The notes under the pieces are model-generated. The model was not told the DNA's origin. It saw only the letters and a program-made list of their open reading frames with translations, and did not search any database. Made by a program: the position numbers and the translations under genes. This document shows positions 1,659 to 60,301 of a DNA stretch of 64,000 nt, piece by piece. Numbering within the stretch: the stretch's first letter is position 1; each line of letters opens with the position of its first letter. Source of the stretch: an uncultured bacterium (lineage in GTDB: Bacteria; UBA8248; JACPRG01; G963555815); assembly GCA_964437725.1 (NCBI GenBank), contig CAYTIB010000114.1, positions 2,695 through 66,694 of the forward strand. The letters are read 5' to 3'.

Positions 1659-1828
1659 TTCCATTATGTGACTGTCGAAGTGTTTCCCTAAATGAACTTT
1701 TTCATTAGTTTCGTGTTTTCCTCTTTGAATTTTCAGGGCTAGATATTTACCTAGTCGTTACTCCCAATAGTCTCTGGAGTGGGTCAAACGAAATCGACCT
1801 GAATGTTCAGACAGAGTGGTGAACTGAA

Positions 1829-3157
1829 ATGGGTACAAAAGAGTTCCTTTCACTGATTTCGGAAGAGGCAGATAAGCGAAAGGATGAGGCCGTTCGGATG
1901 CGTCGAGATTTTCACCGCCATGCTGAACGCGGATGGCTAGAGTTTCGAACAAGTTCAATCCTTGCGTCTCGCTTGGAGTCCCTTGGGTATCAAGTTCAAA
2001 TTGGGTCACAAGTTATCGATAGTTGTTCGCAAATGGGTTTGCCTCCCAAGGAGGAAAGAGAAGAAGCGTTTCTCTGGGCTTTGGAACGGGGAGCAGAGGA
2101 AGAGTGGCTTTCGAAAATGCGAGGTGGGATTACCGGTGTAGTAGGAGTTTTAGAGAGTGACGAAGATGGTCCTACGGTTGCGATGAGATTTGATATCGAT
2201 GCCAATTCGAGTGAGGAGGCTCAGGACGAAAAACATTTACCCTTCCGAGATGGGTTTGCTTCTATCAATCCGGGTGTGATGCATAATTGTGGCCATGATG
2301 GACACGCTACAATCGGGATTTCTGTTGCTTCCCTCCTGGCAAGTAACAGAAATCTGTGGAGGGGTCGATTGAAGATTGTTTTCCAACCTGCTGAAGAGGG
2401 TGGACGTGGGGCTTTGCCTATGGTCGAAGCGGGCGTAGTCGATAACGTGGATTATTTTTTGGCTCCACATTTGGGAGTCCGTGCTAATCGGACAGGCAAA
2501 ATTGTGTGTGGCGCCAAAGGGTTTCAGGCAACAACAAAAATGGATGCCACGTTTCTCGGTCAAAGTGCCCACGCAGGACTCGAACCTGAATTAGGACGGA
2601 ATGCCTTGTCAGCGGCTGCAACGGCCCTGCTCCAACTTCAGGCTATACCGCGCAATAGTCAAGGTAATACGCGGGTTAATGTCGGGATGATGGAGGGGGG
2701 CTCCGGTCGGAACATTATTCCAGACAGGGCTTTGTTGAAGCTTGAGACTAGGGGTGAGACAGTATCACTTGATTCCTATATGGAAGGGCGTGCTCGTGAG
2801 ATTCTCGAGGCCAGTGCCGCTATGCATGGAGTAAGAGTGAATATCGAAAAAATGGGGCAGACTATCTCGGGAAGAAGTGATCCCGAGATGCAAAACCTTA
2901 TAGCCGAGGTAGCATCTGATATACCGGATTTTGACGATATCGTTCTGGAGGAAAACTTTGGAGCTGGGGATGATGCGGCTATCATGATGAATCGTGTTCA
3001 ACAGGATGGAGGGAAAGCTTCCTACATTGTTCTTGGGACGGAGTTACCTAGTGGTCACCATACCCCGTTTTTCGATTTCAACGAGGAGGTCTTAGTTTCC
3101 GGAACAAAACTTTTCTCTGCCGTAGTTTGCCGATTAACTCATGGTTTTGGCGAGTAG
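1829..3157 (+). CDS. M20D-family amidohydrolase (aminoacylase / hippurate-hydrolase-like)
   Basis: 442-aa ORF with M20 metal-binding motifs HNCGHDGH and FQPAEEGGRGA. It lies immediately downstream of the hyuB-like gene on the same strand. Confidence 0.8.
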   Translation: MGTKEFLSLISEEADKRKDEAVRMRRDFHRHAERGWLEFRTSSILASRLESLGYQVQIGSQVIDSCSQMGLPPKEEREEAFLWALERGAEEEWLSKMRGGITGVVGVLESDEDGPTVAMRFDIDANSSEEAQDEKHLPFRDGFASINPGVMHNCGHDGHATIGISVASLLASNRNLWRGRLKIVFQPAEEGGRGALPMVEAGVVDNVDYFLAPHLGVRANRTGKIVCGAKGFQATTKMDATFLGQSAHAGLEPELGRNALSAAATALLQLQAIPRNSQGNTRVNVGMMEGGSGRNIIPDRALLKLETRGETVSLDSYMEGRAREILEASAAMHGVRVNIEKMGQTISGRSDPEMQNLIAEVASDIPDFDDIVLEENFGAGDDAAIMMNRVQQDGGKASYIVLGTELPSGHHTPFFDFNEEVLVSGTKLFSAVVCRLTHGFGE

Positions 3158-12062: not shown

Positions 12063-12242
12063 TTTGTCATTCTAAGCGACTAAAGGGTCTCTCGACGAGG
12101 GCTTCCAAGAATTTTAATCAATTCGCCCTTGTCTCCCATCTTAAATAGGATACTATGATGACGGAATATGATTTGTGCTTACAAGTCTCGTTCACAAAGC
12201 CTGATTAGCAAATGGTAACCTCTTTTGGGGAAGATGCGAGCT

Positions 12243-13307
12243 ATGAAGTTTTATGAACATCTGATTCGGCCTGCGTTGTTCACACTTTCTGCGGAGCGAG
12301 CACATGAAGTTGCAAAGCGAGTCCTTGGATTTGAAACTCCTTGGCGACAGCTTGCAGGTCGGTTTGAATTTTGTGATCGTCGACTGGAAACACGGGTGGG
12401 AGGTCTTCACCAGTCTAGTCCCATCGGTCTAACAGCAGGGTTAGATAAGGATGCTGAAGCCTTACCAGGTCTTTTCCACCTAGGCTTTGGTAGCCTCACT
12501 ATCGGAACTATTATGCCATCGGTCAGGAAGGGAAACCCCAAGCCTCGCATGGTGCGTCTTCCTGATCGGATGGCCGTTATCGATCATATGGGTCTGCCGT
12601 CAAAGGGCATAGAATATGGAGTGTCAAGGCTGAAATTGTTTCGTGATTGCCACCCAATAGGTCAGGGTCCTCCTGTTATCGTCAGTTTGGGTGGGCTTAC
12701 CATTGACGAACTTTTGACATCCCACCGATCTGTTGAGCCGCTATCGGATGCCATCGAATTTGATTTGACTTGTCCAAACGTTACTGAAAGAGGAGATTTC
12801 GAAACCGTTGACGGTATTGAACAATTTGTAAGGAGACTTGTTGATGTGCGGAGTAAGCCGTGCTTTTTTCGATTACCCCTTCGTCTTTCAGACGAGAATT
12901 GGCGCAAGTCTCTTGCCATCAGTGAGATTGTCATAAAGTATGGTATGGATGGAGTAACGCCAGCCGGTGGTGTTGCCATTGATGATGACCGTTTAGCTTT
13001 GAAAAAAGGTGCATTAGCGGGCAAGCCTCTCTTGGAGAATTCAATTCAGATTCTCCGGGATTTGAGGAGCGCATTTGGCGAGGAAATCGTGATACGTATT
13101 GCAGGGGGAGCGACGAGTGGTGAAGATGTTTTCAGAATGCTGGAAGCGGGTGCAGATGCCGTCAATGTTCTAACGGCTTTTATTTTTAGAGGTCCCGGTG
13201 CGGTGGCAGCCATGAACAGGGAGTTGATTGAAAAAATGGATTTAGAGGGAGTGGGATCCATCGGGGAAATCCGATCCCGGGCAACTTCTAAAGTACCCAG
13301 TTCTTGA
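12243..13307 (+). CDS. Dihydroorotate-dehydrogenase-like flavoenzyme, divergent paralog A
   Basis: DHOD-fold motifs are ERAHE N-terminal helix, GLTAGLDKD, GNPKPR, DLTCPNV and GGATSGEDV. The ORF opens at TTG 12225. ATG 12243 has GGGGAAG upstream, and ATG 12234 is also possible. Confidence 0.75.
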   Translation: MKFYEHLIRPALFTLSAERAHEVAKRVLGFETPWRQLAGRFEFCDRRLETRVGGLHQSSPIGLTAGLDKDAEALPGLFHLGFGSLTIGTIMPSVRKGNPKPRMVRLPDRMAVIDHMGLPSKGIEYGVSRLKLFRDCHPIGQGPPVIVSLGGLTIDELLTSHRSVEPLSDAIEFDLTCPNVTERGDFETVDGIEQFVRRLVDVRSKPCFFRLPLRLSDENWRKSLAISEIVIKYGMDGVTPAGGVAIDDDRLALKKGALAGKPLLENSIQILRDLRSAFGEEIVIRIAGGATSGEDVFRMLEAGADAVNVLTAFIFRGPGAVAAMNRELIEKMDLEGVGSIGEIRSRATSKVPSS

Positions 13308-13355
13308 CGCTAGTTTTTCTTGGTTTCCATAGTTTTAAGGCGAGAGAACTTTAGT

Positions 13356-14399
13356 ATGGGTTTTTACACTCGGACAGTTCGTCCTGTTCTTTTCGCACTA
13401 CCCGCTGAAAGTGCACATAACTTAGCCAAACGAGCTTTATCTTTCGAATTTCCTTGGCGTATTTTTGGGGAACAGCTGAAGGTTTTTAGCCCACGGTTGG
13501 AATGTGAGGTTGCAGGACTTTTCCAGCTTAGCCCGTTTGGTCTTACGGCAGGTTTCGATAAAGACGCCTTGGCCCTTCCAGGTCTTTCGCACCTCGGATT
13601 CGGAAGTGTTACTGTTGGGGCCATTTTGCCGAAGTATAGGGCGGGAAATCCGAAACCTCGTTTAGCTAGATGCCCAGCGGAAGCGGCGTTGGTCAACTGT
13701 ATGGGGCTCCCTTCTAAAGGTCTCGACTACGCTGTTAATAATCTTCAACGTTATCATGCAGTTCGTCCTGTTGATGGCCCGCCGATTATTGCGAATGTCG
13801 GAGGATTTTCCATCGATGAGATTCTGGCTACATTCAGAGCTACGGAACCATATGTGGACGCTGTTGAGTTGGATCTAACCTGTCCAAACGTGATGATGGA
13901 AGGAGAACTGTCAAAGCTTGAAGGTATCCGGTCCGCCATGGAGCAAGTAGTGGTGGAGAGGACCAAGCCGGTATTTACGAAGCTTCCATTACGAACGTCT
14001 GAAAAAGATTGGGGGAAAGCGATCGAAATGTCCATCGCTGCAGCCGAAGCAGGGTTGGATGGGATCACGGCTGCGGGGAATCTTCGTGTCCAGGACCAGC
14101 GGCTTTCAAAATCCGAAGCATCTTTGACTGGTCGACCGTGCTTCGAAAATACTTTGAAGGTCGTCCGCGAGTTGCGGGGGGCCATCGGTAGGCGTTTGGC
14201 AGTTCGAGTGTCCGGTGGGGTATCGTCCGGAGAGGATGTCTATCGTCTGCTGCAGGCTGGAGCAGATGCTGCAAATGCCTACACGTCATTTGTTTACCAT
14301 GGACCCTCAATTGCAGCCCGAATCAACCAGGAGTTACTTTTAAAGATGGATGAAGAAGGCGTGGGGTCTGTAAATGAGTTGAAAGAGTGGCGGTTTTGA
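13356..14399 (+). CDS. Dihydroorotate-dehydrogenase-like flavoenzyme, divergent paralog B
   Basis: Alignable end to end with paralog A (AESAHN, GLTAGFDKD, GNPKPR, DLTCPNV, GGVSSGEDV). ATG 13356 is preceded by AAGGCGAGAG. The ORF opens at 13320. Confidence 0.75.
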   Translation: MGFYTRTVRPVLFALPAESAHNLAKRALSFEFPWRIFGEQLKVFSPRLECEVAGLFQLSPFGLTAGFDKDALALPGLSHLGFGSVTVGAILPKYRAGNPKPRLARCPAEAALVNCMGLPSKGLDYAVNNLQRYHAVRPVDGPPIIANVGGFSIDEILATFRATEPYVDAVELDLTCPNVMMEGELSKLEGIRSAMEQVVVERTKPVFTKLPLRTSEKDWGKAIEMSIAAAEAGLDGITAAGNLRVQDQRLSKSEASLTGRPCFENTLKVVRELRGAIGRRLAVRVSGGVSSGEDVYRLLQAGADAANAYTSFVYHGPSIAARINQELLLKMDEEGVGSVNELKEWRF

Positions 14400-14525: not shown

Positions 14526-15260
14526 ATGAATAGAAATATCCTTCGAATTTCACTTCCAATCTTACGCAAGTTGTTTTCGCTAGTTTATTCCAGCTCTCAC
14601 CCGAAAGGATTAAAGAAAGAGGATGCGGAATTTTTGAAAAAGCTTGATCTCGAGGGACGTACTGTCTATGACGTTGGTGCCTACAAGGGTTACTATAGTC
14701 TGTTTTTTGCCCGGGCGGTTGGGTCTCAGGGTCGGGTTATATCATTTGAACCACACCCCTTGAATTTTCAAAAATTGACGAAACGGATCAAGAGAAACCT
14801 GCTTGAAAATGTTGAAGTGCGCCAGATTGCCATAGGAAAAGAAAGTGGGCGGAGGGTATTAGCGTTTCGGATGTCTGGAACAGGAACGGCGAGTCTTCAA
14901 GAAGGTTTAAAGGGAAATATTTCCCGAGAAGGTGGGAGCCAAACTATTAATGTTGACGTGGACTCGTTAGATCATTTGATATCCGTCCAAAAATTGCCAC
15001 AACCGGATTTCATGAAGGTCGATGTCGAGGGTCTCGAGATGGAAGTTCTTTCGGGGATGAAGGGCACGTTAAAGCAGTACAAGCCAGAGCTACTCATTGA
15101 AATTCACGGGGCAGAACGAGAGAGCAAATTGAAAAATGCAGGGAAAATTGTCGATTTTCTAATAGATCAGAGATATTCCCTTCGACATGTTGAATCCAAT
15201 TTGGAAATTACCGCCAATAATTTTGAAATTGCTAGGGAAGGACATTTGTATTGTTTCTAG
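14526..15260 (+). CDS. FkbM-family SAM-dependent methyltransferase
   Basis: 244 aa with the SAM motif VYDVGAYKGYYS and FkbM-like downstream blocks (FEP.P.N…, DF.K.DVEG.E..VL.G). Confidence 0.7.
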   Translation: MNRNILRISLPILRKLFSLVYSSSHPKGLKKEDAEFLKKLDLEGRTVYDVGAYKGYYSLFFARAVGSQGRVISFEPHPLNFQKLTKRIKRNLLENVEVRQIAIGKESGRRVLAFRMSGTGTASLQEGLKGNISREGGSQTINVDVDSLDHLISVQKLPQPDFMKVDVEGLEMEVLSGMKGTLKQYKPELLIEIHGAERESKLKNAGKIVDFLIDQRYSLRHVESNLEITANNFEIAREGHLYCF

Positions 15261-15383: not shown

Positions 15384-15875
15384 TCAATTTGGTGCGACAG
15401 ATGATGCGGCAATGTTCCAATCCTTCCACTCTTTGAATACTTTTTCTGCCTGCTCTTCGAGGACACCCCGAATGACCTGAATGGTTAGACCGCTCAATTC
15501 CACCACCCGCTCTATGGTGTAATCCTTTAAATCGTATCGTCCGCTAGAAAGCCGGCGAAGAACTTCTGGGCCGGCGCCAATGACAACCGTACTTACACCA
15601 GAATAAATTGCTGCTCCGGCACACATAGGGCAAGGATCACAGTTAGCGTACATTGTACAACCACGCATGTCGCCGGTGCCCAAAAATTGAGCGGCCTGGC
15701 GAATTGCATTCATCTCGGCGTGTGCTGTTGGGTCTTTTGTGGCTACTCCTGTACTTTTTCCCTTACCGATGACTTGATCATTTTTTACGATAATGCCGCC
15801 GTATGGTAAGAATCCATTTTGGACGCCGTCTTCAGCTTCCTGAATGGCCATGGCCATATATTTTGCATGGTCCAT
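15384..15875 (-). CDS. CDA-fold (cytidine/deoxycytidylate deaminase family) nucleobase deaminase, guanine-deaminase-like, copy 1 (most divergent)
   Basis: Zn motifs HAE and PCPMC are intact (…DPTAHAEMNAIR… TMYANCDPCPMCAGA…). ATG 15875 (MDHAKYMAMAI) is preceded by CGGAGAAA. The longer ORF to 15959 would overlap copy 2. Confidence 0.8.
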   Translation of the reverse strand: MDHAKYMAMAIQEAEDGVQNGFLPYGGIIVKNDQVIGKGKSTGVATKDPTAHAEMNAIRQAAQFLGTGDMRGCTMYANCDPCPMCAGAAIYSGVSTVVIGAGPEVLRRLSSGRYDLKDYTIERVVELSGLTIQVIRGVLEEQAEKVFKEWKDWNIAASSVAPN

Positions 15876-15903
15876 CAAGATTTTTCTCCGTATTTTGTAG
15901 TTT

Positions 15904-16407
15904 CTATTGACCGGACCGTAATACATTTGGAGAGACGATCGATAAATCACCAAATTCACGAAAAGCGACCTTAACCTCTTCTTCCAGTATTCCTGTCCGG
16001 ACCTCCATTTCGAAACCGGTTAACTTTAATAAATGGTCGATGTTGTACTTATTCAGATCGTAATACCCTCTGGACTCATTTAGTAACGTTTCCATACTGG
16101 CCCCGATGACGATGGCTTTAACCCCTGAGGCGACAGTTGCCCACGCGCACATAGGACAGGGGTGGCATGAAGTATAAAGTGTGCAATTGGTGAGTTTCGA
16201 GGTTTTAAGGTTTTTTGCAGCATTTCGAACTGCCTCGATCTCCGCGTGTGCAGTCGGATCCCCAGTCGAATTGACGACATTACGTCCTTGTCCCACTACA
16301 TTTCCGTCACGCACGACGATGGACCCAAATGGCCGATCACCAGATTGAACCGCAGCACGCATTTCCCCAATGGCCATAGCCATAAATTTTTCGTGGTCCG
16401 CTTCCAT
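15904..16407 (-). CDS. CDA-fold nucleobase deaminase, guanine-deaminase-like, copy 2
   Basis: MEADHEKFMAMAI… DPTAHAEIEAVR… TLYTSCHPCPMC. The sequence closely parallels the B. subtilis GuaD pattern (GPFGAVIV…DPTAHAE…LYTSCEPCPMC). Confidence 0.85.
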   Translation of the reverse strand: MEADHEKFMAMAIGEMRAAVQSGDRPFGSIVVRDGNVVGQGRNVVNSTGDPTAHAEIEAVRNAAKNLKTSKLTNCTLYTSCHPCPMCAWATVASGVKAIVIGASMETLLNESRGYYDLNKYNIDHLLKLTGFEMEVRTGILEEEVKVAFREFGDLSIVSPNVLRSGQ

Positions 16408-16456
16408 CCAAAATCTCCCGATTCGGACTCATTGTTTTTTCAAACGGAAATTCTGG

Positions 16457-16924
16457 TTAAGAAATCGACCAGTCGTATTCGGTGAGAGCCTGTTCAGCAT
16501 CGTCCTGAAGCACTCCCCGGGTGATTTCAAGGGATGCGTGCATCTGTTCGGCGAGGTTTTCTGCCGTATATGTTCTACCCGGCACATTTTGAACCTCCGC
16601 TAGTTTTGCGGATCGGGCCCCTATGAACAATCGCTCAATCTGAGCCATCATTATTGCTCCGGCACACATAGGACAGGGGTCGCAGGACGTATAAAGGGTA
16701 CAACCTGCCAAACTTGCAGTCTTCATGTTGACCGAAGCGTCACGAACTGCATTAACCTCCGCGTGTGTGGTTGGATCTCCAGAGGAGTTAACCACATTGA
16801 AGGCTCGTCCAACGATATTCCCATCGCGCACTACGACTGATCCAAAGGGTTGCTCACCATTTCGGAGCCCTTTACGAGCTTCTGCAATAGCCACAGCCAT
16901 AAACTTCTCATGTTCGGTGCTCAT
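16457..16924 (-). CDS. CDA-fold nucleobase deaminase, guanine-deaminase-like, copy 3
   Basis: MSTEHEKFMAVAI… DPTTHAEVNAVR… TLYTSCDPCPMC. Start ATG 16924 is chosen by alignment with copies 2 and 4 and the upstream GGGAAGGGAAGG. The ORF is open to 16939. Confidence 0.85.
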   Translation of the reverse strand: MSTEHEKFMAVAIAEARKGLRNGEQPFGSVVVRDGNIVGRAFNVVNSSGDPTTHAEVNAVRDASVNMKTASLAGCTLYTSCDPCPMCAGAIMMAQIERLFIGARSAKLAEVQNVPGRTYTAENLAEQMHASLEITRGVLQDDAEQALTEYDWSIS

Positions 16925-16954
16925 TCCTTCCCTTCCCATGTTTGAGGTAAAGCA

Positions 16955-17443
16955 TCAGGTTTGCCGAATTTTCGAATCTAGTATCCATTGGTATTTTGCT
17001 AGTACGAGTTCTGCTTCCTCCTGCAGGACACCCCAGATAACTTGGAGGTCCATTTTGTACATTTCAGCAAGCCGGTCGGGATTGTATGTTCGCTCGCCTG
17101 TCTGGCCTCTCAGTTTAACTAGTGTGCTGCCCCGGCCGGCAATAACTAATGTTCCTATCCTGGCGTTAAGGATAGCTCCGCAACACATCGGACAAGGTTC
17201 ACAAGAAGTATATAGAGTGCTGCCTTCGAGGTTCGGAGTTTTCAATCGTACGGAAGTCTCCCTAACTACTTTGGTTTCCGCGTGTGCAGTGGGGTCGAAC
17301 GAAGAATTGACGGTGTTGTAGGCACTTCCGATCACCTCGTCGTCCCGAACGATAGCACTTCCGAATGGGGCCTCCCCACCACTCAGACCCTTGCGGGATT
17401 CCTCGATGGCCATGGCCATAAACTTCTCATGGTTTTCACTCAT
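16955..17443 (-). CDS. CDA-fold nucleobase deaminase, guanine-deaminase-like, copy 4
   Basis: MSENHEKFMAMAI… DPTAHAETKVVR… TLYTSCEPCPMC. ATG 17443-17441 overlaps the TGA stop (17442-17440) of the upstream LLM gene as an ATGA coupling. Confidence 0.85.
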   Translation of the reverse strand: MSENHEKFMAMAIEESRKGLSGGEAPFGSAIVRDDEVIGSAYNTVNSSFDPTAHAETKVVRETSVRLKTPNLEGSTLYTSCEPCPMCCGAILNARIGTLVIAGRGSTLVKLRGQTGERTYNPDRLAEMYKMDLQVIWGVLQEEAELVLAKYQWILDSKIRQT

Positions 17444-18453
17444 GTTGGAGCTCCTTTTTCGCGATTCCATTGTTCTGCCACAAGTCTAAGAGCATGTTTT
17501 CGGCTCTCCGGGGACCCGCGAAGAGCCAGGATGGGAATTTCAAGTCCCGTCTTGAGGTATTCTGATATACGATCGGTTGCCATCTTCGGCGTACCTGTTA
17601 CCGTAAAGGCATGAACGATTTTCTCTGGCAAAAGACGGCGCATGGTTATCCAGTCTTCCTTGACAAGTGCATTATTAACCGCATCGATATCAAGATTCAC
17701 TCCAGTTAGTTCAAGATTTGTCCGTAATCCAGGATTTCGGAGCAAATAGCCGAGCCCCTTTTGCGCTTCAAGGAGAGCGTCTTCGTAATTTTCTGAAATA
17801 GAGGTCATTATTAGACTGGCATATGTGAAGTTCCCCCCATCATTCCCGCTTCTCTTTCGGCCAATCTCGGTTTGTTCCATGGCCCATTCGATGTACTGGG
17901 GTGATACGGATGCGGAGAAAACGACCCCGTCGGATACTTCTCCGGCAAGTTGGCACATCTTCTCGCCGATGGCCGCAAGATAAATAGGAATTGAGGGTCC
18001 TGGAATTTCGAAGTCAATGTGGGCTCCCTTGAGGCTCAAGGTCTCACCGGTGAACTCTACTCGGTTCCTTTTGGCATCCCAAATTTGTCGTATAGAGCAA
18101 ATCATATCCCGCATATGGGCTAGTGGTTTCTTTAAAGGGATCCCCATCTCACGTATCACCTGTGCATTGGCTGTTCCAGCACAGAGAGCTGTGCGGCCTG
18201 GAGCGTACTCCGCTAATGTTGCTACCCCCATCGCCCAAAAAAGGGGATGAGCAACGTAGGGACTAAGTGCGGTAGGTATGACGAGTGTGTTTTTTGTTTC
18301 TGCTAGAAAGGCGATCGATGAAGAAACGGCATCTCGATATCCTAGGTGTTGATCAGCCCAGATGGAATGAAAACCCGCCTCGTCGGCAATTCGGCACATA
18401 TCAACCATGTCGGAGAGCGAAATGCGTCCATCCAAATCGATACCAAGCTTCAT
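17440..18453 (-). CDS. LLM-class (luciferase-like) flavin/F420-dependent oxidoreductase, Mer-like
   Basis: 337 aa from ATG 18453, which has GGAGG 6 nt upstream. It has the typical LLM N-terminus (MKLGIDLDG…AGFHSIWADQHL…) and a TIM-barrel pattern resembling methylene-H4MPT reductase-type F420 enzymes. Confidence 0.75.
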   Translation of the reverse strand: MKLGIDLDGRISLSDMVDMCRIADEAGFHSIWADQHLGYRDAVSSSIAFLAETKNTLVIPTALSPYVAHPLFWAMGVATLAEYAPGRTALCAGTANAQVIREMGIPLKKPLAHMRDMICSIRQIWDAKRNRVEFTGETLSLKGAHIDFEIPGPSIPIYLAAIGEKMCQLAGEVSDGVVFSASVSPQYIEWAMEQTEIGRKRSGNDGGNFTYASLIMTSISENYEDALLEAQKGLGYLLRNPGLRTNLELTGVNLDIDAVNNALVKEDWITMRRLLPEKIVHAFTVTGTPKMATDRISEYLKTGLEIPILALRGSPESRKHALRLVAEQWNREKGAPT

Positions 18454-18600: not shown

Positions 18601-20907
18601 TTAGCCCCCGTTAGAGGTGATTCCCTTTGCCCGGATGGCTTGGAGCAGGTCCTGGGGTCGGATTGGAACCTTATGACAACGGATGCCTACTGCGTCGTGA
18701 ATTGCATTTGCAATTGCCGCAGCAACAGGATTTACAGGCCCTTCGGAGCAGCCTTTGGCCCCGAGCGGGCCGAGGGGGTCATCCGATTCAATGAAATCGT
18801 GGCGGATAGGTGGCATAGCTTCAGCCTTGGGGACGGCATAGTCGGCCAGGTTTCCGTTTACCGGTTGACCGTTCTCAAACACCATTTCCTCAAAATACGC
18901 CCATCCTAATCCTTGAGAAATGGCACCCTCCGTTTGGCTTTCAGCTCCGAGTGCGGATATGACTCTCCCTACATCGTCCACCGTGACGAATTCCAGAATA
19001 TCCACTTGACCGGTTTCTACATCCACTTCAACCTCGGCAATCTGCGCCACGAATTCATAGCCGGGGGCCACGTTACCATCCAGAAGCGGTGGCCGGATGG
19101 TTTCATTTTCAGCCTCGTAATGGCCGACGGCCATGACTGGGCCCTCATTATTTTGTTCCTTCTTGACAGCTTCTCCGATACTCATTCCCCGGTCAGGGGA
19201 TCCCTTAACGAAAATCCGGCCTTGTTCAAAAACAAGATCATCCGAGTCCACCTCGTACTCTTTGGACACGACGGCTGCAAGTTTCTTTTTCAGCTCCACT
19301 GCTGCCCGATGAACGGCGTTACCACCAATCATAGTGATTCGGCTTGCAAAGGACCCAAGAGTGTAAGGGGCGACATCGGTGTCTGGCTCGCACATGTCAA
19401 TATCTTTGACATCCACGCCGAGCTCTTCCGCAGCGAACATACTAAGAACTGTGGGTGCGCCTTGTCCGTTATCCCCTTCCCCAATGAGCAAACCGATTCG
19501 CCCGTCGTCGTGGGCGTGGAGAATCGCTGTGGAGCCTTCCCACCCTGCAATCACACGGTTTCCGCTTACGTGATTGGCGCATGCTAATCCAATACCTCGT
19601 CGGCGGGTTCCGGAGTCCGACTGACGGGTTTCCTCGCGTTTGCGTTTCCAATCAGTCATTTCTACAGCACGCTCGACGCATTCGGGAAGAGCATTTGTAA
19701 TTGCGTTCCACTTGTGAATCGAGAGCTCACCAGGGTTGAGCACATTTTGAAGACGTAGATCCGGAGGGTCGATATTCAACTGTTCAGCAAGCATGTCCAT
19801 CATGATTTCACCGGGAACCGTTGTTTGCGGTGTCCCAAATCCCCTAAATGCGCCCTTCGGAGGATTGTTGGTGTACATTAATTTTGCCTTCACGCCGCAG
19901 GCTTTCCATCGATAAAGTGATGGCCAACGGGTTACCATCGTATTGACGATACCCGGAGAGGCCCCAGCGTGCGCTCCACATTCTGCGACAATGTTCAGGG
20001 AATGCGCAGTGAGGGTTCCATTTTTCATGGCCCCGATTTTGAGTTGGACCTTTGCGGGCACCCGCATTCGTGTTGCCCCCCGAAAGGATTCAGTTCGGAG
20101 GTTTTCAAGCTTAACTGGACGACCAGACTTCAGGGCCAGTAGTCCGTTGATAAGAGCATTGGGATCATCAATTGATTTTCCACCGAAGGAGCCACCAACA
20201 TAAGGCTGAACCAGTCGAACCTTGGAAGTTTCCAGCCCCAACCCCATTGCGATCCTGTCTCTGCCAAGAAAAACTTTTAGGCAGGGGACATACATGACCA
20301 GCTTGTTTCCATCGGTTGGATCGGCAACGGTACAGTTTGGTTCGGTAAAGGCGTGATACTGTGTTTTTACTATAAATTCTTCTTCTAGAACGATATCGGA
20401 AGCTGCAAAGGTGGTTTCCAGGTTCTCACCTTTCTGAAAATCTAATTCGTGACAGATGTTATTTGGGGCCTCGTCGTGAATGAGAAGGGCGTTATCCGCC
20501 ATCGCGTCTTCGGGAGTGAGGTAGGCAGGAAGCGTTTCATACTCTACTTTTATGCGATCAATGGCTTCCTCGGCGATCTCCCGAGACACTGCGGCAACCG
20601 CCGCAACCTCGTGACCGATGAACCATACTTTGTTTATAGCGAGGGCGGTTTGATCTTTCCGTAATGTTCCAAATCCTGCACCCGGAGGGATGTCCTGACC
20701 AGTCACAATTGTCTTGACACCGGGAACCTTCAAGGCTTCAGAGGTGTCAATTTTCAGAATTCGCGCGTGAGAATGCACACTTCGCAATACCTTGCCATGC
20801 AGCAGACCCGGAAAATTCATATCTGTAGCAAACTTGGCTTGCCCCGATACCTTCACCGGGGACCCAACCATCGGGGTACGCGAACCTATCACTCTAAATG
20901 AACTCAT
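18601..20907 (-). CDS. Xanthine dehydrogenase/aldehyde oxidase family molybdopterin-binding large subunit
   Basis: 768 aa with the N-terminal a/b hammerhead (…RTPMVGSPVKVSGQAKFATDM…HGKVLRS.H.HA.I…), GGSFGGK, and the C-terminal GAKGCSEGP block containing the catalytic Glu position. No fused or adjacent 2Fe-2S or FAD subunit is present. Confidence 0.85.
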   Translation of the reverse strand: MSSFRVIGSRTPMVGSPVKVSGQAKFATDMNFPGLLHGKVLRSVHSHARILKIDTSEALKVPGVKTIVTGQDIPPGAGFGTLRKDQTALAINKVWFIGHEVAAVAAVSREIAEEAIDRIKVEYETLPAYLTPEDAMADNALLIHDEAPNNICHELDFQKGENLETTFAASDIVLEEEFIVKTQYHAFTEPNCTVADPTDGNKLVMYVPCLKVFLGRDRIAMGLGLETSKVRLVQPYVGGSFGGKSIDDPNALINGLLALKSGRPVKLENLRTESFRGATRMRVPAKVQLKIGAMKNGTLTAHSLNIVAECGAHAGASPGIVNTMVTRWPSLYRWKACGVKAKLMYTNNPPKGAFRGFGTPQTTVPGEIMMDMLAEQLNIDPPDLRLQNVLNPGELSIHKWNAITNALPECVERAVEMTDWKRKREETRQSDSGTRRRGIGLACANHVSGNRVIAGWEGSTAILHAHDDGRIGLLIGEGDNGQGAPTVLSMFAAEELGVDVKDIDMCEPDTDVAPYTLGSFASRITMIGGNAVHRAAVELKKKLAAVVSKEYEVDSDDLVFEQGRIFVKGSPDRGMSIGEAVKKEQNNEGPVMAVGHYEAENETIRPPLLDGNVAPGYEFVAQIAEVEVDVETGQVDILEFVTVDDVGRVISALGAESQTEGAISQGLGWAYFEEMVFENGQPVNGNLADYAVPKAEAMPPIRHDFIESDDPLGPLGAKGCSEGPVNPVAAAIANAIHDAVGIRCHKVPIRPQDLLQAIRAKGITSNGG

Positions 20908-21050: not shown

Positions 21051-21929
21051 TCAACTCCTTAGAAGCATGATCAGGACGACGCCGAGGACGATAGATGCGG
21101 TCCCGGCGTATGTCCTTCTCGTTATATTTTCTAAGTCTCCCAAAAAGAACGCCGCCATGGAGATAGATAAAAGCGGGGTAGCGCCGAGAATTGCCATGAC
21201 TCGCGAGACCTCTCCCAAAGAGATGGCAGAAAACAGAAAAAACAAGGTGACGGCAAGAGTGATTCCTGCGAGAAGGAAAAACCCCAATGCTCTGGTAGAA
21301 CAGACCAGCCGCATATTTTTTGGGAACATTTTATAGGTCATTCCAAGGACTATTAGGGCAGAAAATGTGGAAATCAAAATGGCTATGTGAGGGAGCGGGA
21401 TGACCGATAATCCGACCTTTCGGATAACAGCGGCTAGACCCCAGAAGAATCCTGCGGCCAGGGGAAGGATCGCTTCTCTCAACTTTAGTGGTGTTTCCCC
21501 TTTTGGGTGCATAATCACCCAAATTCCTCCAACGATCAGAACGGTGCCGACATACAAAGTCCAGTGGGGTCGTTCGCCCAAGAGCAGAACGCTGAGTATA
21601 ACTGAGAAGAGAGGATTTGAGCCCATCCCTATGGGGGCTGCTCGCCCAACTCCCAAGCGACTTAGAGCGATGTAGTACATCGTCATGGACAAGGCAGGGG
21701 AACTGATACCTCCCAGCAAAAACCAGAGCACACCCTTTTGTGACAAATCCGTCCATTGGACCCCAAGGGAGGCGCATACTCCAGTATAGGCAATTAAAAC
21801 GGTTAGGTTAATGACCACAGCGGCGACGTAGGGAGAGCCGGTTTGTAGCCCTTGACGGGTCAGAGTGCTCATAAACGACATGGCAAAGACAGCGATGAGA
21901 GCCAGGAAATCAGCGGGTATGGCTTGCAA
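21051..21929 (-). CDS. EamA/DMT-superfamily transporter, paralog 1
   Basis: 292 aa with about 10 predicted TM segments and duplicated EamA-type halves. It aligns over its full length with the next gene. Confidence 0.75.
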   Translation of the reverse strand: MQAIPADFLALIAVFAMSFMSTLTRQGLQTGSPYVAAVVINLTVLIAYTGVCASLGVQWTDLSQKGVLWFLLGGISSPALSMTMYYIALSRLGVGRAAPIGMGSNPLFSVILSVLLLGERPHWTLYVGTVLIVGGIWVIMHPKGETPLKLREAILPLAAGFFWGLAAVIRKVGLSVIPLPHIAILISTFSALIVLGMTYKMFPKNMRLVCSTRALGFFLLAGITLAVTLFFLFSAISLGEVSRVMAILGATPLLSISMAAFFLGDLENITRRTYAGTASIVLGVVLIMLLRS

Positions 21930-21980
21930 TTTGTATTTCCATTTAAAGGGAAAAGTATTCTAGTTGAAAAGAAAAGTGTG

Positions 21981-22868
21981 CTAGGTCCTGAGCAATGTAA
22001 TGATGATAATGCCTACTACAATGGCTACTGTACCTCCATAGGTTCTGGCGGTTATCCTTTCTAAATTTCCGAGGAATATGGCAGCCATGGCGATGGTTAA
22101 AAGCGGAATAATTCCCATTATAGACATCACCTTGGAAACCTGCCCCAAAGCGAGAGCGGAGTAAAGAAAATAAAGGGATGTGGCAAAGGCAATTCCCGCG
22201 CAAAGGAAGAACTTCGCGGCCTTCCGGGAGCACACAAGTCGTTTTCCTTTTGGGACAAACCAATATGTCAGGATTAAAAATGTTAAGGCTGTTGCCGCGG
22301 AGATGGCAATACCAACGTGAGGTAGTGAGATATAAGACAAGCCGATCTTCCGAAAAACAGAAGCCAATCCCCAGAAAAAGCCAGCGCTCAAAGGAATCAG
22401 GGATTCCTTCCACGTTAACGGTGGCAGACCTTTCGGTCTAGTAATCACCCAAATCCCACTGATGACTAAGATTGTTCCCAAGTATAAAGACCAATTTGGT
22501 CTCTCGCCCAAAAGTATGATCGCCAAAGTTACCGAGGCTAGAGGATTTGCACCCATAGCAATGGGAGCGGCTTGTGCGACGCCAAAACGACTTAGTCCAT
22601 AGTAGTAAATAGTCATCGAAAGGGCAGGGGAACTGATACCGGCTATCAGAAACCACATGACTCCGGTTAGCGGAAGTTTTGTCCATTGGACTCCTAGAAC
22701 AGTACAAACTACAAAATAAATAATTAGAACCGTTGTGTTCATTATGATTGCCGCCATGTAGGGGGATCCTGTTTGGAGACCCTGACGGTTCAAGACACTA
22801 AGGAAAGACATTGCAAAGGCAGCAAGAAGCGCAATGAAGGGTACTGGGATGGTTTGAATGAAGGACAA
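21981..22868 (-). CDS. EamA/DMT-superfamily transporter, paralog 2
   Basis: 295 aa. It shares blocks with paralog 1 (…RQGLQTGSPY.AA…, GISSPALSMT.YY..LSR.GV..AAPI.MG.NPL.SV…LLGERP.W.LY.GT.L…). Confidence 0.75.
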   Translation of the reverse strand: MSFIQTIPVPFIALLAAFAMSFLSVLNRQGLQTGSPYMAAIIMNTTVLIIYFVVCTVLGVQWTKLPLTGVMWFLIAGISSPALSMTIYYYGLSRFGVAQAAPIAMGANPLASVTLAIILLGERPNWSLYLGTILVISGIWVITRPKGLPPLTWKESLIPLSAGFFWGLASVFRKIGLSYISLPHVGIAISAATALTFLILTYWFVPKGKRLVCSRKAAKFFLCAGIAFATSLYFLYSALALGQVSKVMSIMGIIPLLTIAMAAIFLGNLERITARTYGGTVAIVVGIIIITLLRT

Positions 22869-27903: not shown

Positions 27904-28767
27904 TTATTCCCTGTCGTTTTCATTGGAGTTCTTAGTTAAATTGGGATACTTGCGTTTTTCTGCAGGCCGATGCTTCCGTAGCGTCTCGATGAATTCAACC
28001 CCGTTTCCAATGATGGCCTGCCACAATTTTTCGCCCTTTTCCACATTGGCGACAGTTGGATCGCCGATGTGTGCTGGGGGAGTATAAAAGCTCTGATCGT
28101 CTGCAGTTATCGTTATTGGAATTTTGTCGCCGGATGCAAAATTGTCGTGGGAAAAAAACCGACTTTCAAAGTAAAGGTTTCCCCGGTGTTCGAAGGCCTT
28201 ATCCATTTGGACCATCTCGGGACGTTTGAATAGCATATGGGACGTTTCAAACTCACCGCCATGCTGCCCCGCGCCCGGATTCTCACAGACCTCTTTATGG
28301 GTTGAGGAAGCAATGATTAAAGGATCGTACAAAGCAAAAAAGGTTTCTGGATTTTCTTGTTTAATGGTTTTGCTTGCAATCCCAATTGCAGCGACGTTGG
28401 CTAGCCGGTGGCCATTGAAGGTGATAATGTTTTTAAATCCATGTTTTATGAGGCTGCGATAAATATCCTTAAGTAGATCGACTACTGTTTCTGGCCTAAG
28501 CGAAATCCCAGGTTTGTGCATGTGGTGCTGGGCGTCTCCAAACCAGCTTGGTGGTGTGCACAAGACATTCGCGGCCTTTGCTATCCCTTCCGAATAATCA
28601 ATAGCTTCGAACCCATCGACCCCAATGGGAAGATGTGGACCGTGTGGTTCGGTACTTCCAATAGGTACGATTACGATGTCTTCCTGTTCCAGGTATTCGG
28701 CAATCTCTTCCCAAGTAAGATCCTGCATCCAAATTGATTTGAGTTTCTTTTTCCGCGCGGTAGCCAT
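27904..28767 (-). CDS. Creatininase-family amidohydrolase
   Basis: Hallmark motif VPIGSTEPHGPHLP (family pattern GS.EQHGPHLP) plus a later GGEFETS block. ATG 28767 is preceded by AAAGGAG. The track start (TTG 28791) is less likely. Confidence 0.8.
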   Translation of the reverse strand: MATARKKKLKSIWMQDLTWEEIAEYLEQEDIVIVPIGSTEPHGPHLPIGVDGFEAIDYSEGIAKAANVLCTPPSWFGDAQHHMHKPGISLRPETVVDLLKDIYRSLIKHGFKNIITFNGHRLANVAAIGIASKTIKQENPETFFALYDPLIIASSTHKEVCENPGAGQHGGEFETSHMLFKRPEMVQMDKAFEHRGNLYFESRFFSHDNFASGDKIPITITADDQSFYTPPAHIGDPTVANVEKGEKLWQAIIGNGVEFIETLRKHRPAEKRKYPNLTKNSNENDRE

Positions 28768-29103
28768 GCGTTCTTTTCTCCTTTGCGACAAACGGTGTTT
28801 TGTCGTTGCGTTAGTAGAATATAGGCTAACTTTGTTCCTCAGAGATTATGCTGTAGTCTCGGTTGCTCGGATAGGTTCATTGCGAAATCGAGTCGTATGG
28901 GAATGAACCGGAGCGACAGCTTTTCTGCTTTTGTCGAATTTTCTCCGGGTGGGTATGGCAACTCACGGTTTGTACTTGAAGGTGTGTCGACATCGGTACC
29001 GCCACCTTCGCGGTTCCTGGGGGTTCAACGAGAATGTTCTCCCAGGTAGGTGATTTTCCCACCCTCTCACGGAGCAGAGATACCTCTTGCTGGTGAGAAG
29101 TGC

Positions 29104-55177: not shown

Positions 55178-55201
55178 CGGCTGGAATGAAGGGGAGAAAT
55201 C

Positions 55202-59848: not shown

Positions 59849-60301
59849 AGATGCATACTTCCTTACCCCCTTATATTACAGGGATTGACAGAGAAGGTAC
59901 AGGATCTACCTACACATCCATCCACCCACACCACGGAAAGAACCCCCTTGCTTCGCACCTATTTTGCTAGCTTTCAAAGCGTTTCCTGCGCCGTAGTAAT
60001 CTGCATATCTGGTGAATGTGTTCTTTACCATGGGCTCCTCCCTCAAGACTTCCGGAATTATTCTCTCGAAGAAAGTGAAAGGGGCCTACCTTGACATTCG
60101 TGAGACCGAAGGCCATATACAGCGCGATGTTTCTCGCGATCGCACGACATGCTTCCGGGCAATCGTAAGCACCCTATCCCGAGATAATTCTGAAAATTCC
60201 CGTCTCATCCAGGTGCGTGTGGAAAGAGGCGAAACGCCATGACGCGTCCGCTCGCCCTACTGGGCGCGCGGACGTTGTGACCCACTGAGGACTTCCATTT
60301 C

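What the first reader, a model, noticed from the sequence alone, without database searches (positions are those of the whole stretch)
15384..17470. Four tandem, apparently all-active guanine-deaminase-like CDA-fold deaminases
**Seen in the sequence**
- Four consecutive minus-strand genes of about 155-167 aa occupy 15384-15875, 15904-16407, 16457-16924 and 16955-17443, separated by only 16-50 nt.
- They align end to end (M..HEKFMA.AI.E.R.G…PFGS..VRD..V.G…N.V…DPT.HAE…VR…LYTSC.PCPMC…I.G…Y……GVL.EEA).
- All four retain the Zn/catalytic motifs HAE and PCxxC. Roughly half of the positions are identical between neighbours by eye, and copy 1 is the most divergent (LPYGG, YANCDPC).

**Established knowledge**
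- The core is nearly superimposable on B. subtilis guanine deaminase GuaD (GPFGAVIV…DPTAHAE…LYTSCEPCPMC). That family also includes TadA, yeast-type cytosine deaminase, and enzymes acting on ammeline and pterins. These enzymes act as domain-swapped dimers.

**Inference**
- A four-fold array with every active site preserved suggests either sub-functionalised specificities for several amino-heterocycles, sequential deamination of a poly-amino substrate, or hetero-oligomers.
- I do not recognise a described pathway that uses four such paralogs in a row.
Basis: partly seen in the sequence, partly recalled or inferred. Interest (0 to 1): 0.72.

Follow-up and report, generated by a model that had tools for sequence, protein, structure and literature searches.

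The report
Conserved four-gene deaminase array in Nitrospinota
Four old, individually conserved copies of a zinc deaminase sit in a row behind a probably F420-dependent reductase gene in marine Nitrospinota bacteria. They most likely strip ammonia from several different nitrogen-ring compounds, belong to an uncharacterised branch next to guanine deaminase, and have no known pathway.

Summary
Four minus-strand CDA-fold deaminase genes (155-167 aa, gaps of 28-49 nt) all keep the HAE and PCxxC motifs.

- **Age and selection:** they are ancient paralogs (39-53% identical) forming four orthologous clades in a fixed order, and each is under purifying selection (dN/dS 0.05-0.16).
- **Conservation:** arrays of 3-4 recur in independent Nitrospinota assemblies. 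78 of 80 ordinary deaminase loci hold one copy.
- **Operon partner:** the first copy overlaps (ATGA) the stop codon of a Mer-like, probably F420-dependent LLM oxidoreductase. This LLM-deaminase pair persists even where only one deaminase exists.

"Guanine-deaminase-like" holds only for the core (44% identity to B. subtilis GuaD over 104 columns). The GFDD motif, the swapped C-terminal Tyr lid and GuaD-clade membership are absent. TadA thresholds are also not met. The clade is a rare sister group of GuaD/GSDA.

Ten of 25 clade-discriminating positions lie in active-site loops, and copy 1 replaces the conserved substrate-contact Asn.

Best reading (0.5): substrate-diverged small-molecule aminohydrolases in an operon that breaks down nitrogen heterocycles. 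Heterodimers (c1·c2, c3·c4) remain a live rival. The substrates are unknown.

The parts
15384..15875 (-). Deaminase copy c1 (163 aa), last gene of the operon and the most divergent copy. Its pocket is remodelled: LPYGG, Asn43->Ser, and YANC in place of YTSC.
   Evidence: PF00383 E 2.8e-24. The c1 clade has 99% bootstrap support. dN/dS 0.105 against L088.
15904..16407 (-). Deaminase copy c2 (167 aa), with His before the zinc motif (SCHPCPMC). It shares an 8-residue insertion (RYDLxDY type) with c1.
   Evidence: PF00383 E 1.4e-25. AF2 model pLDDT 91.5. The clade has 84% support. dN/dS 0.134.
16457..16924 (-). Deaminase copy c3 (155 aa), the short form without the insertion.
   Evidence: PF00383 E 5.3e-27. 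The clade has 74% support. dN/dS 0.159.
16955..17443 (-). Deaminase copy c4 (162 aa), first deaminase of the operon. Clade-specific residues are Ser75, Glu82 and Trp138. Its start codon overlaps the LLM stop codon (ATGA).
   Evidence: PF00383 E 3e-25. The ATGA overlap and the AAAGGAG motif are read. The clade has 100% support. dN/dS 0.052.
17440..18453 (-). Mer-like LLM (luciferase-like) oxidoreductase of 337 aa, probably F420-dependent, co-transcribed with the array. The ORF could extend to the GTG at 18546, but orthologs start at MKLGID.
   Evidence: PF00296 E 6e-46. The best NCBIfam hits are Mer and other F420-dependent LLM families, all below cutoff. The best PDB match is Mer 1z69, E 4.8e-33. 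Orthologs precede deaminases in L001, L002, L003-5, L088, L094 and L092.
18601..20907 (-). Molybdenum-hydroxylase large subunit (xanthine-dehydrogenase family, 768 aa) upstream on the same strand. It is syntenic in all array loci, but variable genes are inserted between it and the LLM in relatives.
   Evidence: PF01315, PF02738 and PF20256. It is closest to 4-hydroxybenzoyl-CoA reductase alpha and XdhA, below cutoffs. Synteny is shown.
21051..22868 (-). Two tandem EamA-family transporters (21051-21929 and 21981-22868, 62% identical), syntenic with the array.
12225..14399 (+). Two tandem class-2 DHODH-like flavoenzyme genes (12225-13307 and 13320-14399, 48% identical), below the PyrD equivalog cutoffs. 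An ortholog of the second also sits next to a deaminase pair in L098.
   Evidence: PF01180. NCBIfam scores are 190-201 bits against a cutoff of 267. The L098 DHO_dh is 65% identical to the second copy.
14526..15260 (+). FkbM-family methyltransferase between the DHODH-like pair and the array. It is syntenic in L001 and L088. A functional link was not tested.

Best explanation
**What it is.** The array encodes four long-separated, individually maintained paralogs of an uncharacterised subgroup of COG0590 zinc deaminases. So far this subgroup has been seen only in Nitrospinota-labelled or unlabelled metagenomic contigs.

**Operon.** The four genes are transcribed as one operon behind a Mer-like, probably F420-dependent LLM oxidoreductase. 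The first deaminase appears translationally coupled to it.

**Likely mechanism.** Each copy most likely acts as a soluble small-molecule aminohydrolase. A zinc-bound water, activated by the HAE glutamate, replaces an exocyclic amino group on an amidine-type carbon of an imported nitrogen heterocycle with oxygen and releases ammonia. Pyrimidine-like free bases or cyclic amidines are favoured as substrates.

**Why four copies.** The copies have diverged in their pockets, so together they cover several related substrates, or successive amino groups of one substrate.

**Rest of the pathway.** The LLM, the DHODH-like flavoenzymes and the molybdenum hydroxylase would carry out the ring redox steps of the same catabolic or nitrogen-scavenging route.

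**Shown:** gene structure, operon signals, age, fixed order, purifying selection, intact catalytic motifs, family placement, pocket-loop divergence and gene linkages.

**Inferred:** small-molecule substrates, different specificities, F420 use and the pathway role.
For: 1. **Catalytic competence.** H54, E56, C84 and C87 are invariant in 41 clade members. dN/dS is 0.05-0.16 for every copy, similar to the LLM (0.074) and the Mo subunit (0.047).
2. **Ancient ordered array.** There are four orthologous clades (bootstrap 99, 84, 74, 100) with the order LLM-c4-c3-c2-c1 kept in L001 and L088.
3. **Birth-and-death of copies.** Copy number is 1 (L092/L093), 3 (L003, L004), at least 3 (L094) or 4. The fourth copy in L002 (its counterpart is also present in L094) is an independent c3 duplicate, and L098 carries an independent pair of c2-like copies. 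This fits expansion of substrate range better than a complex of fixed composition.
4. **Pocket divergence.** 10 of 25 clade-discriminating positions lie in the three active-site loops (positions 25, 27, 29, 43, 45, 75, 79, 80, 82). These include the equivalents of bGD F26 and N42 and of yCD N51. The roles of these residues are taken from PMC9081823.
5. **Small molecule rather than nucleic acid.** TadA equivalog scores are 76-86 bits against a cutoff of 150. The zinc motif is the free-base type SCxPCPMC. The pI is 5.0-5.8 with a non-basic tail, like bGD and yCD and unlike E. coli TadA (pI 7.1, tail +4). The nearest characterised clade is GuaD/GSDA.
6. **Metabolic context.** The LLM ortholog (66%) is kept next to a single deaminase in L092. 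A DHODH-like ortholog (65%) lies next to a deaminase pair in L098. Other members neighbour NMT1-type binding proteins, an amidase or a cyclase/formamidase-type hydrolase. More distant LLM relatives sit in clusters for uptake and catabolism of small nitrogenous compounds.
7. **F420 is plausible.** 15 of the LLM's 16 NCBIfam hits are F420-type families, the best PDB hit is Mer, and F420 biosynthesis genes are reported in Nitrospinae genomes (PMC8498797).
Against: - No substrate has been identified, and nothing here measures activity.
- c1 lacks the otherwise near-invariant substrate-contact Asn and was never seen without c2. It could be a partner subunit rather than an independent enzyme.
- Fixed gene order and tight spacing also fit a hetero-oligomer. 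Fused two-domain CDA proteins exist elsewhere.
- The Mo large subunit has no adjacent FeS or FAD subunit genes. Variable genes (Amidohydro_2, a PIN toxin-antitoxin pair, TIR) are inserted between it and the LLM in relatives, so its link to the array is weaker.
- LLM orthologs at 55-59% identity have no deaminase next to them.
- Support for monophyly of the whole superclade is low (26%).
- F420 dependence is inferred from family similarity only.
Confidence: 0.5

Rival explanations
1. **Obligate hetero-oligomer.** The paralogs pair as heterodimers: c1 with c2 (both carry the 8-residue insertion) and c3 with c4. CDA-type active sites lie at the dimer interface, so one subunit could shape or close the other's pocket. 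The array would then encode one or two composite enzymes rather than four independent ones.
For: - The order is fixed, the gaps are 28-49 nt, each gene has its own Shine-Dalgarno-like motif, and c4 is coupled to the LLM.
- c1 has lost the conserved Asn but is under purifying selection, and it was never found without c2.
- c1 and c2 share one insertion state, and c3 and c4 share the other.
- Natural fusions of two CDA domains exist in the wider family, some with one dead domain that still supplies the C-terminal Tyr.
- bGD and NE0047 rely on inter-subunit contacts (PMC9081823).
Against: - All four copies keep the catalytic Glu and the zinc ligands. This differs from the ADAT2/ADAT3 pattern and from the fusions with one dead domain.
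- c2-like and c3-like proteins occur alone (L092, L096, L097), so they can work without partners.
- c4 is absent from the three-copy arrays and is replaced by an independent c3 duplicate in L002; L094 carries the same c3 duplicate.
- No interface or co-evolution test could be run.
Confidence: 0.25
2. **Guanine or guanosine deaminase isozymes.** The copies feed xanthine to the neighbouring xanthine-dehydrogenase-family enzyme, making this a purine catabolic cluster.
For: - GuaD and GSDA are the best sequence matches for the core and form the sister clade.
- A Mo-hydroxylase large subunit of the XDH family lies upstream.
- c1 and c2 keep an Asp four residues before a conserved Tyr. This could correspond to bGD D114...Y118 (my reading of the alignment; the MAFFT alignment with bGD does not align these motifs).
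Against: - The GFDD and YWAR motifs and the C-terminal Tyr lid are absent in all copies.
- Alignment to bGD ends at column 109.
- The copies lie outside the GuaD group, which has 96% support without them.
- c3 and c4 lack the second acid that the review calls a guanine-deaminase hallmark.
- c1 lacks the Asn that binds O6.
- The Mo subunit scores below the XdhA cutoff and is closest to 4-hydroxybenzoyl-CoA reductase.
- Four isozymes for a single substrate would be unexplained.
Confidence: 0.1
3. **Nucleic-acid deaminases.** The copies are TadA-like tRNA or DNA editors, or an anti-phage deaminase system.
For: - The C-terminal half aligns at full length only with TadA-type proteins and NE0047.
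- Foldseek ranks TadA structures first.
- TIR and PIN toxin-antitoxin genes are inserted nearby in L002-L005.
Against: - TadA equivalog scores are about half the cutoff.
- The proteins are acidic and lack the basic C-terminal helix of TadA.
- PADLOC gives only a motif-level hit to a dCTP deaminase.
- The TIR and PIN genes are variable insertions, absent from the window, L001 and L088.
- The stable neighbours are metabolic enzymes and transporters.
Confidence: 0.05
4. **Artefact or decaying duplicates.** The array is a misassembled repeat, or a set of recent duplications drifting towards pseudogenes.
For: None found.
Against: - Paralogs are only 39-53% identical, with saturated dS.
- There are no long DNA repeats.
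- The same array is found in independent assemblies.
- dN/dS is 0.05-0.16.
Confidence: 0.01

Closest known systems
Bacillus subtilis guanine deaminase GuaD (PDB 1WKQ/1TIY)
   Same: CDA fold. HAE and SCxPCPMC motifs. 44% identity over the 104-column core. Stacking Phe and Asn are kept in c2-c4. Acidic soluble protein. Sister clade in the tree.
   Different: No GGPFGA extra Gly, no YWAR, no AGFDD, and no domain-swapped C-terminal arm ending in Tyr156. The structural match covers only 126 columns at TM 0.63.
Arabidopsis guanosine deaminase GSDA (PDB 7DBF)
   Same: Best profile hit for the core (E 1.8e-36). Foldseek TM 0.75. Groups with GuaD as the sister clade.
   Different: GSDA keeps the GFDD motif. 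The confident profile alignment stops at about position 108, before it.
Nitrosomonas europaea NE0047 guanine/8-azaguanine deaminase (PDB 2G84, 4HRQ)
   Same: Not domain-swapped. Best structural superposition of the c2 model (TM 0.80, rmsd 2.2 Å over 158 columns). The sequence alignment runs through the C-terminal half.
   Different: NE0047 is about 30 residues longer, with an N-terminal beta-sandwich (PMC9081823). The copies here start directly at helix 1. Sequence similarity is weak (E 8.9e-15 with the profile). Whether its second shuttle E143 has an equivalent could not be settled.
Bacterial tRNA adenosine deaminase TadA (E. coli 1Z3A, S. aureus 2B3J)
   Same: Same strand-helix C-terminal topology (GVLxxEA... 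helix). Top Foldseek matches. Full-length profile alignment.
   Different: Below the equivalog cutoff (76-86 against 150). SCxPCPMC in place of TLEPCxMC. No basic RNA-binding tail. Farther away in the tree.
Yeast cytosine deaminase Fcy1 (PDB 1UAQ)
   Same: Small free-base enzyme whose C-terminal helix seals the pocket. The family profile aligns through the last strand and helix to F144. The family has a near-invariant Trp just after that helix, which recalls W152.
   Different: 26% identity. The alignment ends before W152/D155/I156, and no acidic residue follows the Trp. It is the outgroup in the tree.
ADAT2/ADAT3 and fused two-domain CDA proteins (heteromer precedents)
   Same: Paralogous CDA domains pair up to form one enzyme. 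Fused two-domain relatives were found here.
   Different: In ADAT3 (labelled 'probable inactive' in PDB 7NZ7) and in several of the fusions, one domain has lost catalytic residues. Here all four copies keep them. The fused proteins are only 35-40% identical to c1.

Membership tests
CDA-fold zinc deaminase superfamily (Pfam PF00383; COG0590-type nucleoside/nucleobase deaminases) | H(C)xE and PCxxC zinc/catalytic motifs, and a score above the Pfam gathering cutoff | tested here: met
   All four copies score 85-94 bits against a cutoff of 25. H, E and both Cys are invariant in 41 clade members.
CDA-fold zinc deaminase superfamily (Pfam PF00383; COG0590-type nucleoside/nucleobase deaminases) | Alpha/beta/alpha deaminase fold | tested here: met
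   The c2 AF2 model has pLDDT 91.5. Foldseek gives probability 1.00 to TadA, GSDA and NE0047 at TM 0.75-0.80. Only c2 was modelled.
B. subtilis-type guanine deaminase (GuaD) | Second acidic proton shuttle in the GFDD motif (D114) | tested here: not met
   No GFDD in any copy. c3 and c4 have xPRTY or GERTY at that place. c1 and c2 have an Asp in R/YYDLxxY that might be equivalent, but this is unproven.
B. subtilis-type guanine deaminase (GuaD) | Domain-swapped C-terminal arm and lid ending in Tyr156 | tested here: not met
   hhalign stops at column 109. The tails end in [YFW]xDW... and not in a terminal Tyr. The 1wkq match covers 126 columns at TM 0.63.
B. subtilis-type guanine deaminase (GuaD) | Conserved Asn (N42) and stacking Phe (F26) | tested here: inconclusive
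   Present in c2, c3 and c4. c1 has Ser and Tyr in all its orthologs.
B. subtilis-type guanine deaminase (GuaD) | Falls inside the GuaD clade in a phylogeny | tested here: not met
   The GuaD group (bGD plus sequences annotated as guanine deaminase) has 96% bootstrap support without any array copy.
NE0047-type guanine deaminase | N-terminal beta-sandwich extension, second Glu (E143) and an essential C-terminal loop | tested here: inconclusive
   The extension is absent: the copies are 155-167 aa against 197, and alignments start at NE0047 residue 32-34. The E143 equivalent could not be mapped because no residue-level alignment was obtained (one search found nothing).
tRNA adenosine(34) deaminase TadA | NCBIfam NF008113 equivalog cutoff (150 bits) | tested here: not met
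   Scores are 76.3, 77.9, 86.5 and 78.7 bits.
tRNA adenosine(34) deaminase TadA | Extended basic C-terminal helix that binds RNA | tested here: not met
   The last 20 residues carry net charge 0, 0, -4 and 0, against +4 in E. coli TadA. The pI is 5.0-5.8 against 7.1. The feature is taken from PMC9081823.
Yeast-type cytosine deaminase (Fcy1) | C-terminal helix residues W152, D155 and I156 sealing a cytosine-sized pocket | tested here: inconclusive
   The profile aligns to F144 only. A near-invariant Trp follows the last helix, but no acidic residue follows it.
ADAT2/ADAT3-type heterodimeric deaminase | One catalytic subunit paired with one subunit that lacks the catalytic Glu | tested here: not met
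   All four copies and all their orthologs keep HAE.
ADAT2/ADAT3-type heterodimeric deaminase | Physical heterodimer of paralogs | not testable with these tools
   No multimer prediction or interaction data were available.
F420-dependent methylene-H4MPT reductase Mer (for the coupled LLM) | NCBIfam Mer equivalog cutoffs (276 and 348.7 bits) | tested here: not met
   Scores are 161.8 and 141.2 bits. It is Mer-like but not Mer. F420 binding was not tested.

The most novel reading that the evidence does not exclude
The LLM and the three or four deaminases form one F420-dependent machine, possibly with defined heterodimers. It strips several amino groups in sequence from a poly-amino nitrogen heterocycle (a triaminopyrimidine-, pterin- or triazine-like compound or a cyclic amidine) and reduces the ring. 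This would be an undescribed route by which marine Nitrospinota mine ammonia from dissolved organic nitrogen. It would be the first physiological role for F420 in this phylum and a new input to reciprocal feeding between nitrifiers.
Probability: 0.12. Interest if true: 0.8.

Novelty: new variant of a known kind. Interest (0 to 1): 0.55.

Why it matters
- **An unassigned enzyme group.** COG0590 deaminases are routinely auto-annotated as 'TadA', 'guanine deaminase' or 'nucleoside deaminase', and the relatives here carry all three labels. This locus shows a coherent, strongly conserved subgroup that fits none of them. Its defining residues are now listed for experimental follow-up.
- **A natural experiment in specificity.** A stable ordered array of active paralogs could show how CDA-fold pockets, or dimer partners, diversify.
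- **A possible role for F420 in Nitrospinota.** The 2021 F420 review states that no experimental study has examined the cofactor's role in this phylum or the others it lists alongside it (PMC8498797). The coupling to a Mer-like LLM gives a concrete operon to test.
- **Marine nitrogen cycling.** If the substrates are dissolved organic nitrogen heterocycles, the operon bears on how marine nitrite oxidisers and their relatives obtain reduced nitrogen.

Tried and rejected
- **Species-genome scan with the four-copy alignment.** The degenerate patterns pulled in about 600 generic deaminases (Bacteroidales and others, ~35% identical). No array relative was found, and the best hit was 45% (L008). The loci were useful only as a background control.
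- **Promoter and terminator scan.** Hit counts were at or below the shuffle expectation, so it was uninformative for this organism.
- **PDB search with the C-terminal 80 residues of c2.** No real hit, so NE0047 E143 and bGD D114 could not be mapped residue by residue.
- **PADLOC.** No defence-system match.
- **L096.** Its LLM looked like another LLM-deaminase link, but it is not an ortholog (no BLAST hit at E<=1e-5 to the other LLMs), so it was not counted.
- **Literature searches.** Nothing on this array was found.
- **First bootstrap attempt.** It timed out and was redone with numpy distances.
- **Ideas considered and dropped:**
  - Recent duplication or relaxed selection is contradicted.
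  - Misassembly is contradicted.
  - Thiamine-pyrimidine salvage, suggested by the NMT1/THI5-type binding proteins, is chemically unsupported, because a CDA deaminase would destroy HMP.
  - Ectoine-like cyclic amidines, suggested by the OCD and creatinase neighbours of distant LLMs, are kept only as a loose lead.

Full report
**1. Observation**

The window carries four consecutive minus-strand ORFs at 15384-15875 (c1, 163 aa), 15904-16407 (c2, 167 aa), 16457-16924 (c3, 155 aa) and 16955-17443 (c4, 162 aa).
- Each has a Shine-Dalgarno-like motif a few bases upstream of the stated start.
- The c4 ATG overlaps the stop codon of the upstream gene (ACATGAGTG, an ATGA overlap). Orthologs in other contigs start at the same place, so the shorter coordinates are the real genes.
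- The gaps are 28, 49 and 30 nt.
- All four match PF00383 and PF14437 at E 1e-22 to 1e-27, and all keep HAE and PCPMC.
- Pairwise identity is 39-53%.

**2. Real, old and selected**
- At the DNA level the copies share only stretches of <=56 nt at 61-84% identity, at the motif-coding sites. A collapsed or expanded repeat is therefore excluded.
- The same arrangement occurs in independent assemblies:
  - a 5.17 Mb contig (L001, four copies);
  - a 1.5 Mb contig (L002, four copies);
  - an 18 kb and a 7.9 kb contig (L088, L089, four copies);
  - several shorter contigs with three copies (L003, L004) and L094 with at least three; L005 shows two before its contig ends.
- Trees place the copies in four orthologous clades with bootstrap support c1 99, c2 84, c3 74 and c4 100. 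Orthologs are 62-90% identical and paralogs 37-56%.
- The gene order LLM-c4-c3-c2-c1 is conserved in L001 and L088.
- Against the close relative L088 (dS 0.27-0.48), dN/dS is 0.052 (c4), 0.159 (c3), 0.134 (c2) and 0.105 (c1). The flanking LLM (0.074) and Mo subunit (0.047) are comparable.

**3. Unusual and rare**
- An HMM of the family was run on 80 loci around ordinary members of the wider family. It found a single deaminase in 78 and a weak second hit in 2. Arrays were found only in relatives of this locus.
- An exhaustive phmmer search with c1 against 1.84 billion representatives gave 12,543 hits at E<=1e-3 but only 7 at E<=1e-30. There was only one other full-length c1-type cluster.
- Named members of the related clusters are all 'Nitrospinota bacterium' MAG proteins, for both the deaminase and the LLM.
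- The species-representative genome scan found nothing closer than 45%.

**4. Family placement**

The four proteins are not TadA, scoring 76-86 bits against an NCBIfam cutoff of 150.

Their N-terminal core is closest to guanosine and guanine deaminases:
- profile E 1.8e-36 to GSDA and 1e-34 to B. subtilis GuaD;
- 44% identity to GuaD over 104 columns (the reference sequence was verified).

Every such alignment stops at about position 108. In a joint alignment, genuine GuaD-type sequences share GGPFGA, PCPMCLGAIYWAR, AGFDD and a C-terminal Tyr, and all four clades lack these.

The C-terminal half aligns only with TadA-type proteins and NE0047, and through the last strand and helix of yeast cytosine deaminase (sequence verified). 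Taken alone, it matches no solved structure.

The c2 model is confident (pLDDT 91.5). It superposes about equally on TadA, GSDA and NE0047 (TM 0.75-0.80), and poorly on the domain-swapped GuaD (TM 0.63 over 126 columns).

In a bootstrapped tree with verified references, the whole superclade is sister to the GuaD/GSDA group. That group has 96% support without any array copy. The superclade is farther from TadA and yCD. Support for the superclade itself is low (26%).

The review PMC9081823 gives the hallmarks used here:
- guanine deaminases need two acidic shuttles, a conserved Asn and a C-terminal lid;
- TadA has an extended RNA-binding C-terminal helix;
- yCD seals a small pocket with W152/D155/I156;
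- COG0590 contains several uncharacterised groups.

This clade is best described as one such group.

**5. Divergence between the copies**

Twenty-five alignment positions are conserved within clades but differ between them. Ten of them lie in the three active-site loops.
- **c1** carries Tyr for the stacking Phe, Gly29, Ser for the near-invariant Asn (bGD N42, yCD N51), Gly45 and Ala-Asn for Thr-Ser before the zinc motif.
- **c2** has His before PCPMC.
- **c4** has Ser75, Glu82 and Trp138.
- **c1 and c2** share an 8-residue insertion (RYDLxDY) that c3 and c4 lack.
- All copies are acidic (pI 5.0-5.8) with non-basic tails. This resembles GuaD (5.2) and yCD (5.7), not E. coli TadA (7.1, tail +4) (TadA sequence verified).

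**6. Context**

Immediately upstream, and overlapping c4, is a 337-aa LLM.
- Its best NCBIfam hits are Mer and other F420-dependent LLM families, all below cutoff.
- Its best solved relative is Mer (E 4.8e-33).
- The LLM orthogroup is small and sharply bounded: identity runs from 93 down to 55% and then drops to 37%.
- Members at 65% identity or more always precede deaminases, including L092/L093, where there is a single c2-like deaminase.
- The 55-59% members instead sit with an NMT1-type ABC uptake system and an ornithine-cyclodeaminase-family gene.
- The nearest outgroup lies among opine dehydrogenases and creatinase/M24 hydrolases.

Further upstream are a Mo-hydroxylase large subunit and two EamA transporters. 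They are syntenic in all array loci, with variable insertions between the Mo gene and the LLM.

Downstream, across an FkbM methyltransferase, are two DHODH-like genes that score below the PyrD cutoffs. A 65% ortholog of the second lies next to an independent pair of c2-like deaminases in L098.

Other single-copy relatives neighbour NMT1-type binding proteins (L092, L096, L097), an amidase (L096), a cyclase/formamidase-type hydrolase (L090) or beta-hydroxyacid-dehydrogenase-family genes (L008, L090).

F420 biosynthesis genes are reported in Nitrospinae genomes (PMC8498797).

**7. Interpretation**

*Shown:* a four-gene, single-strand, tightly spaced set of catalytically intact, anciently diverged paralogs, individually under selection. 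They are coupled to a Mer-like LLM in a neighbourhood of heterocycle redox enzymes and transporters.

*Inferred (confidence 0.5):* they are small-molecule aminohydrolases whose pockets have diverged to cover several amino-N-heterocycles or cyclic amidines, or successive amino groups of one compound. They release ammonia, and the LLM and the DHODH-like and Mo enzymes handle the ring redox chemistry.

The pattern of repeated independent duplication and loss (1, 3 or 4 copies; c3' in L002 and L094; the pair in L098) fits expansion of substrate range better than a fixed complex.

The main rival (0.25) is heterodimer formation (c1·c2, c3·c4).
- For it: the fixed order, c1's remodelled pocket and its strict co-occurrence with c2, the shared insertion states, and fused two-domain CDA proteins found in the exhaustive search.
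- Against it: catalytic residues are retained in all copies, and c2- and c3-like genes occur alone.

Guanine-deaminase isozymes (0.1), nucleic-acid editing or defence (0.05) and artefact (0.01) are disfavoured by the membership tests above and by PADLOC.

**8. Novelty and limits**

Each protein is a new member of a known superfamily. The conserved ordered array of active paralogs, coupled to a Mer-like LLM, was not found in the held library.

Not established:
- the substrates;
- the oligomeric state;
- the LLM cofactor;
- whether the Mo enzyme belongs to the same pathway;
- whether these genomes also carry canonical tadA and guaD genes. Only local loci could be read.

Noticed in passing
window 12225-14399, 15384-17443, 21051-22868: Three neighbouring gene families are each tandemly duplicated: DHODH-like x2 (48% identical), deaminase x4 and EamA transporter x2 (62% identical). 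The duplicates are conserved in L001 and L088. This suggests parallel handling of two or more related substrates across the whole island.
   Followed up: partly
proteins P0168-P0175, P0179, P0181, P0183, P0186: Some 270-450 aa proteins carry two fused CDA deaminase domains. In several, an active GuaD-like N-domain (HAE, PCPMC, GFDD) is fused to a degenerate C-domain (TATAE, EPDVMS, zinc ligands lost) that still ends in the GuaD-type C-terminal Tyr. This looks like an intramolecular mimic of the domain-swapped GuaD dimer. In others both domains are intact.
   Followed up: partly
L002 5703-7631; L003 7816-8217; L004 2679-3080; L005 4135-4536; L001 6660-7544: The gap between the Mo-hydroxylase gene and the LLM is an insertion hotspot. 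It holds a PIN/PSK toxin-antitoxin pair plus a TIR-domain gene in L002, a TIR-domain gene in L003-L005, and an Amidohydro_2 gene in L001. Nothing is inserted in the window or in L088.
   Followed up: no
L100 (GCA_046758845.1, the same MAG as L093): This Nitrospinota MAG has a second LLM paralog (59% identical to the window's). It lies in a cluster with hydantoinase A, an NMT1 binding protein, an ABC permease and an ornithine-cyclodeaminase-family gene. Next to that is a molybdopterin oxidoreductase / NrfD / 4Fe-4S / multihaem cytochrome c cluster.
   Followed up: no
window 30-3157, 27904-28791, 58608-59846: The window is rich in C-N hydrolases for small nitrogenous compounds: hydantoinase B/oxoprolinase (cut at the window start), two M20 peptidase-family genes and a creatininase-family gene. 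This is consistent with a lifestyle that scavenges organic nitrogen.
   Followed up: no
window 53252-56629: The selenocysteine machinery genes SelB (53252-55177) and SelA (55202-56629) are present, so the organism makes selenoproteins.
   Followed up: no
window 60001-62000: A local GC peak (0.594 against about 0.47-0.50 elsewhere) coincides with a DEAD-box helicase gene (60302-61546) that carries long antisense ORFs. It is followed by a fatty-acid desaturase gene. Nothing unusual was found beyond the composition.
   Followed up: partly
window 18601-20907: The xanthine-dehydrogenase-family Mo subunit has no FeS or FAD subunit genes within 10 kb, here or in L001, L002 or L088. Its closest curated family is 4-hydroxybenzoyl-CoA reductase alpha rather than XdhA, and both score below cutoff.
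   Followed up: partly
L090 1704-2562; L091: In the sister clade (P0011-P0015, 169 aa), a single deaminase overlaps the start of a PF04199 'putative cyclase' (arylformamidase-type, HxGTHxDxPxH) gene. This is another tight pairing of a deaminase with a hydrolase.
   Followed up: no
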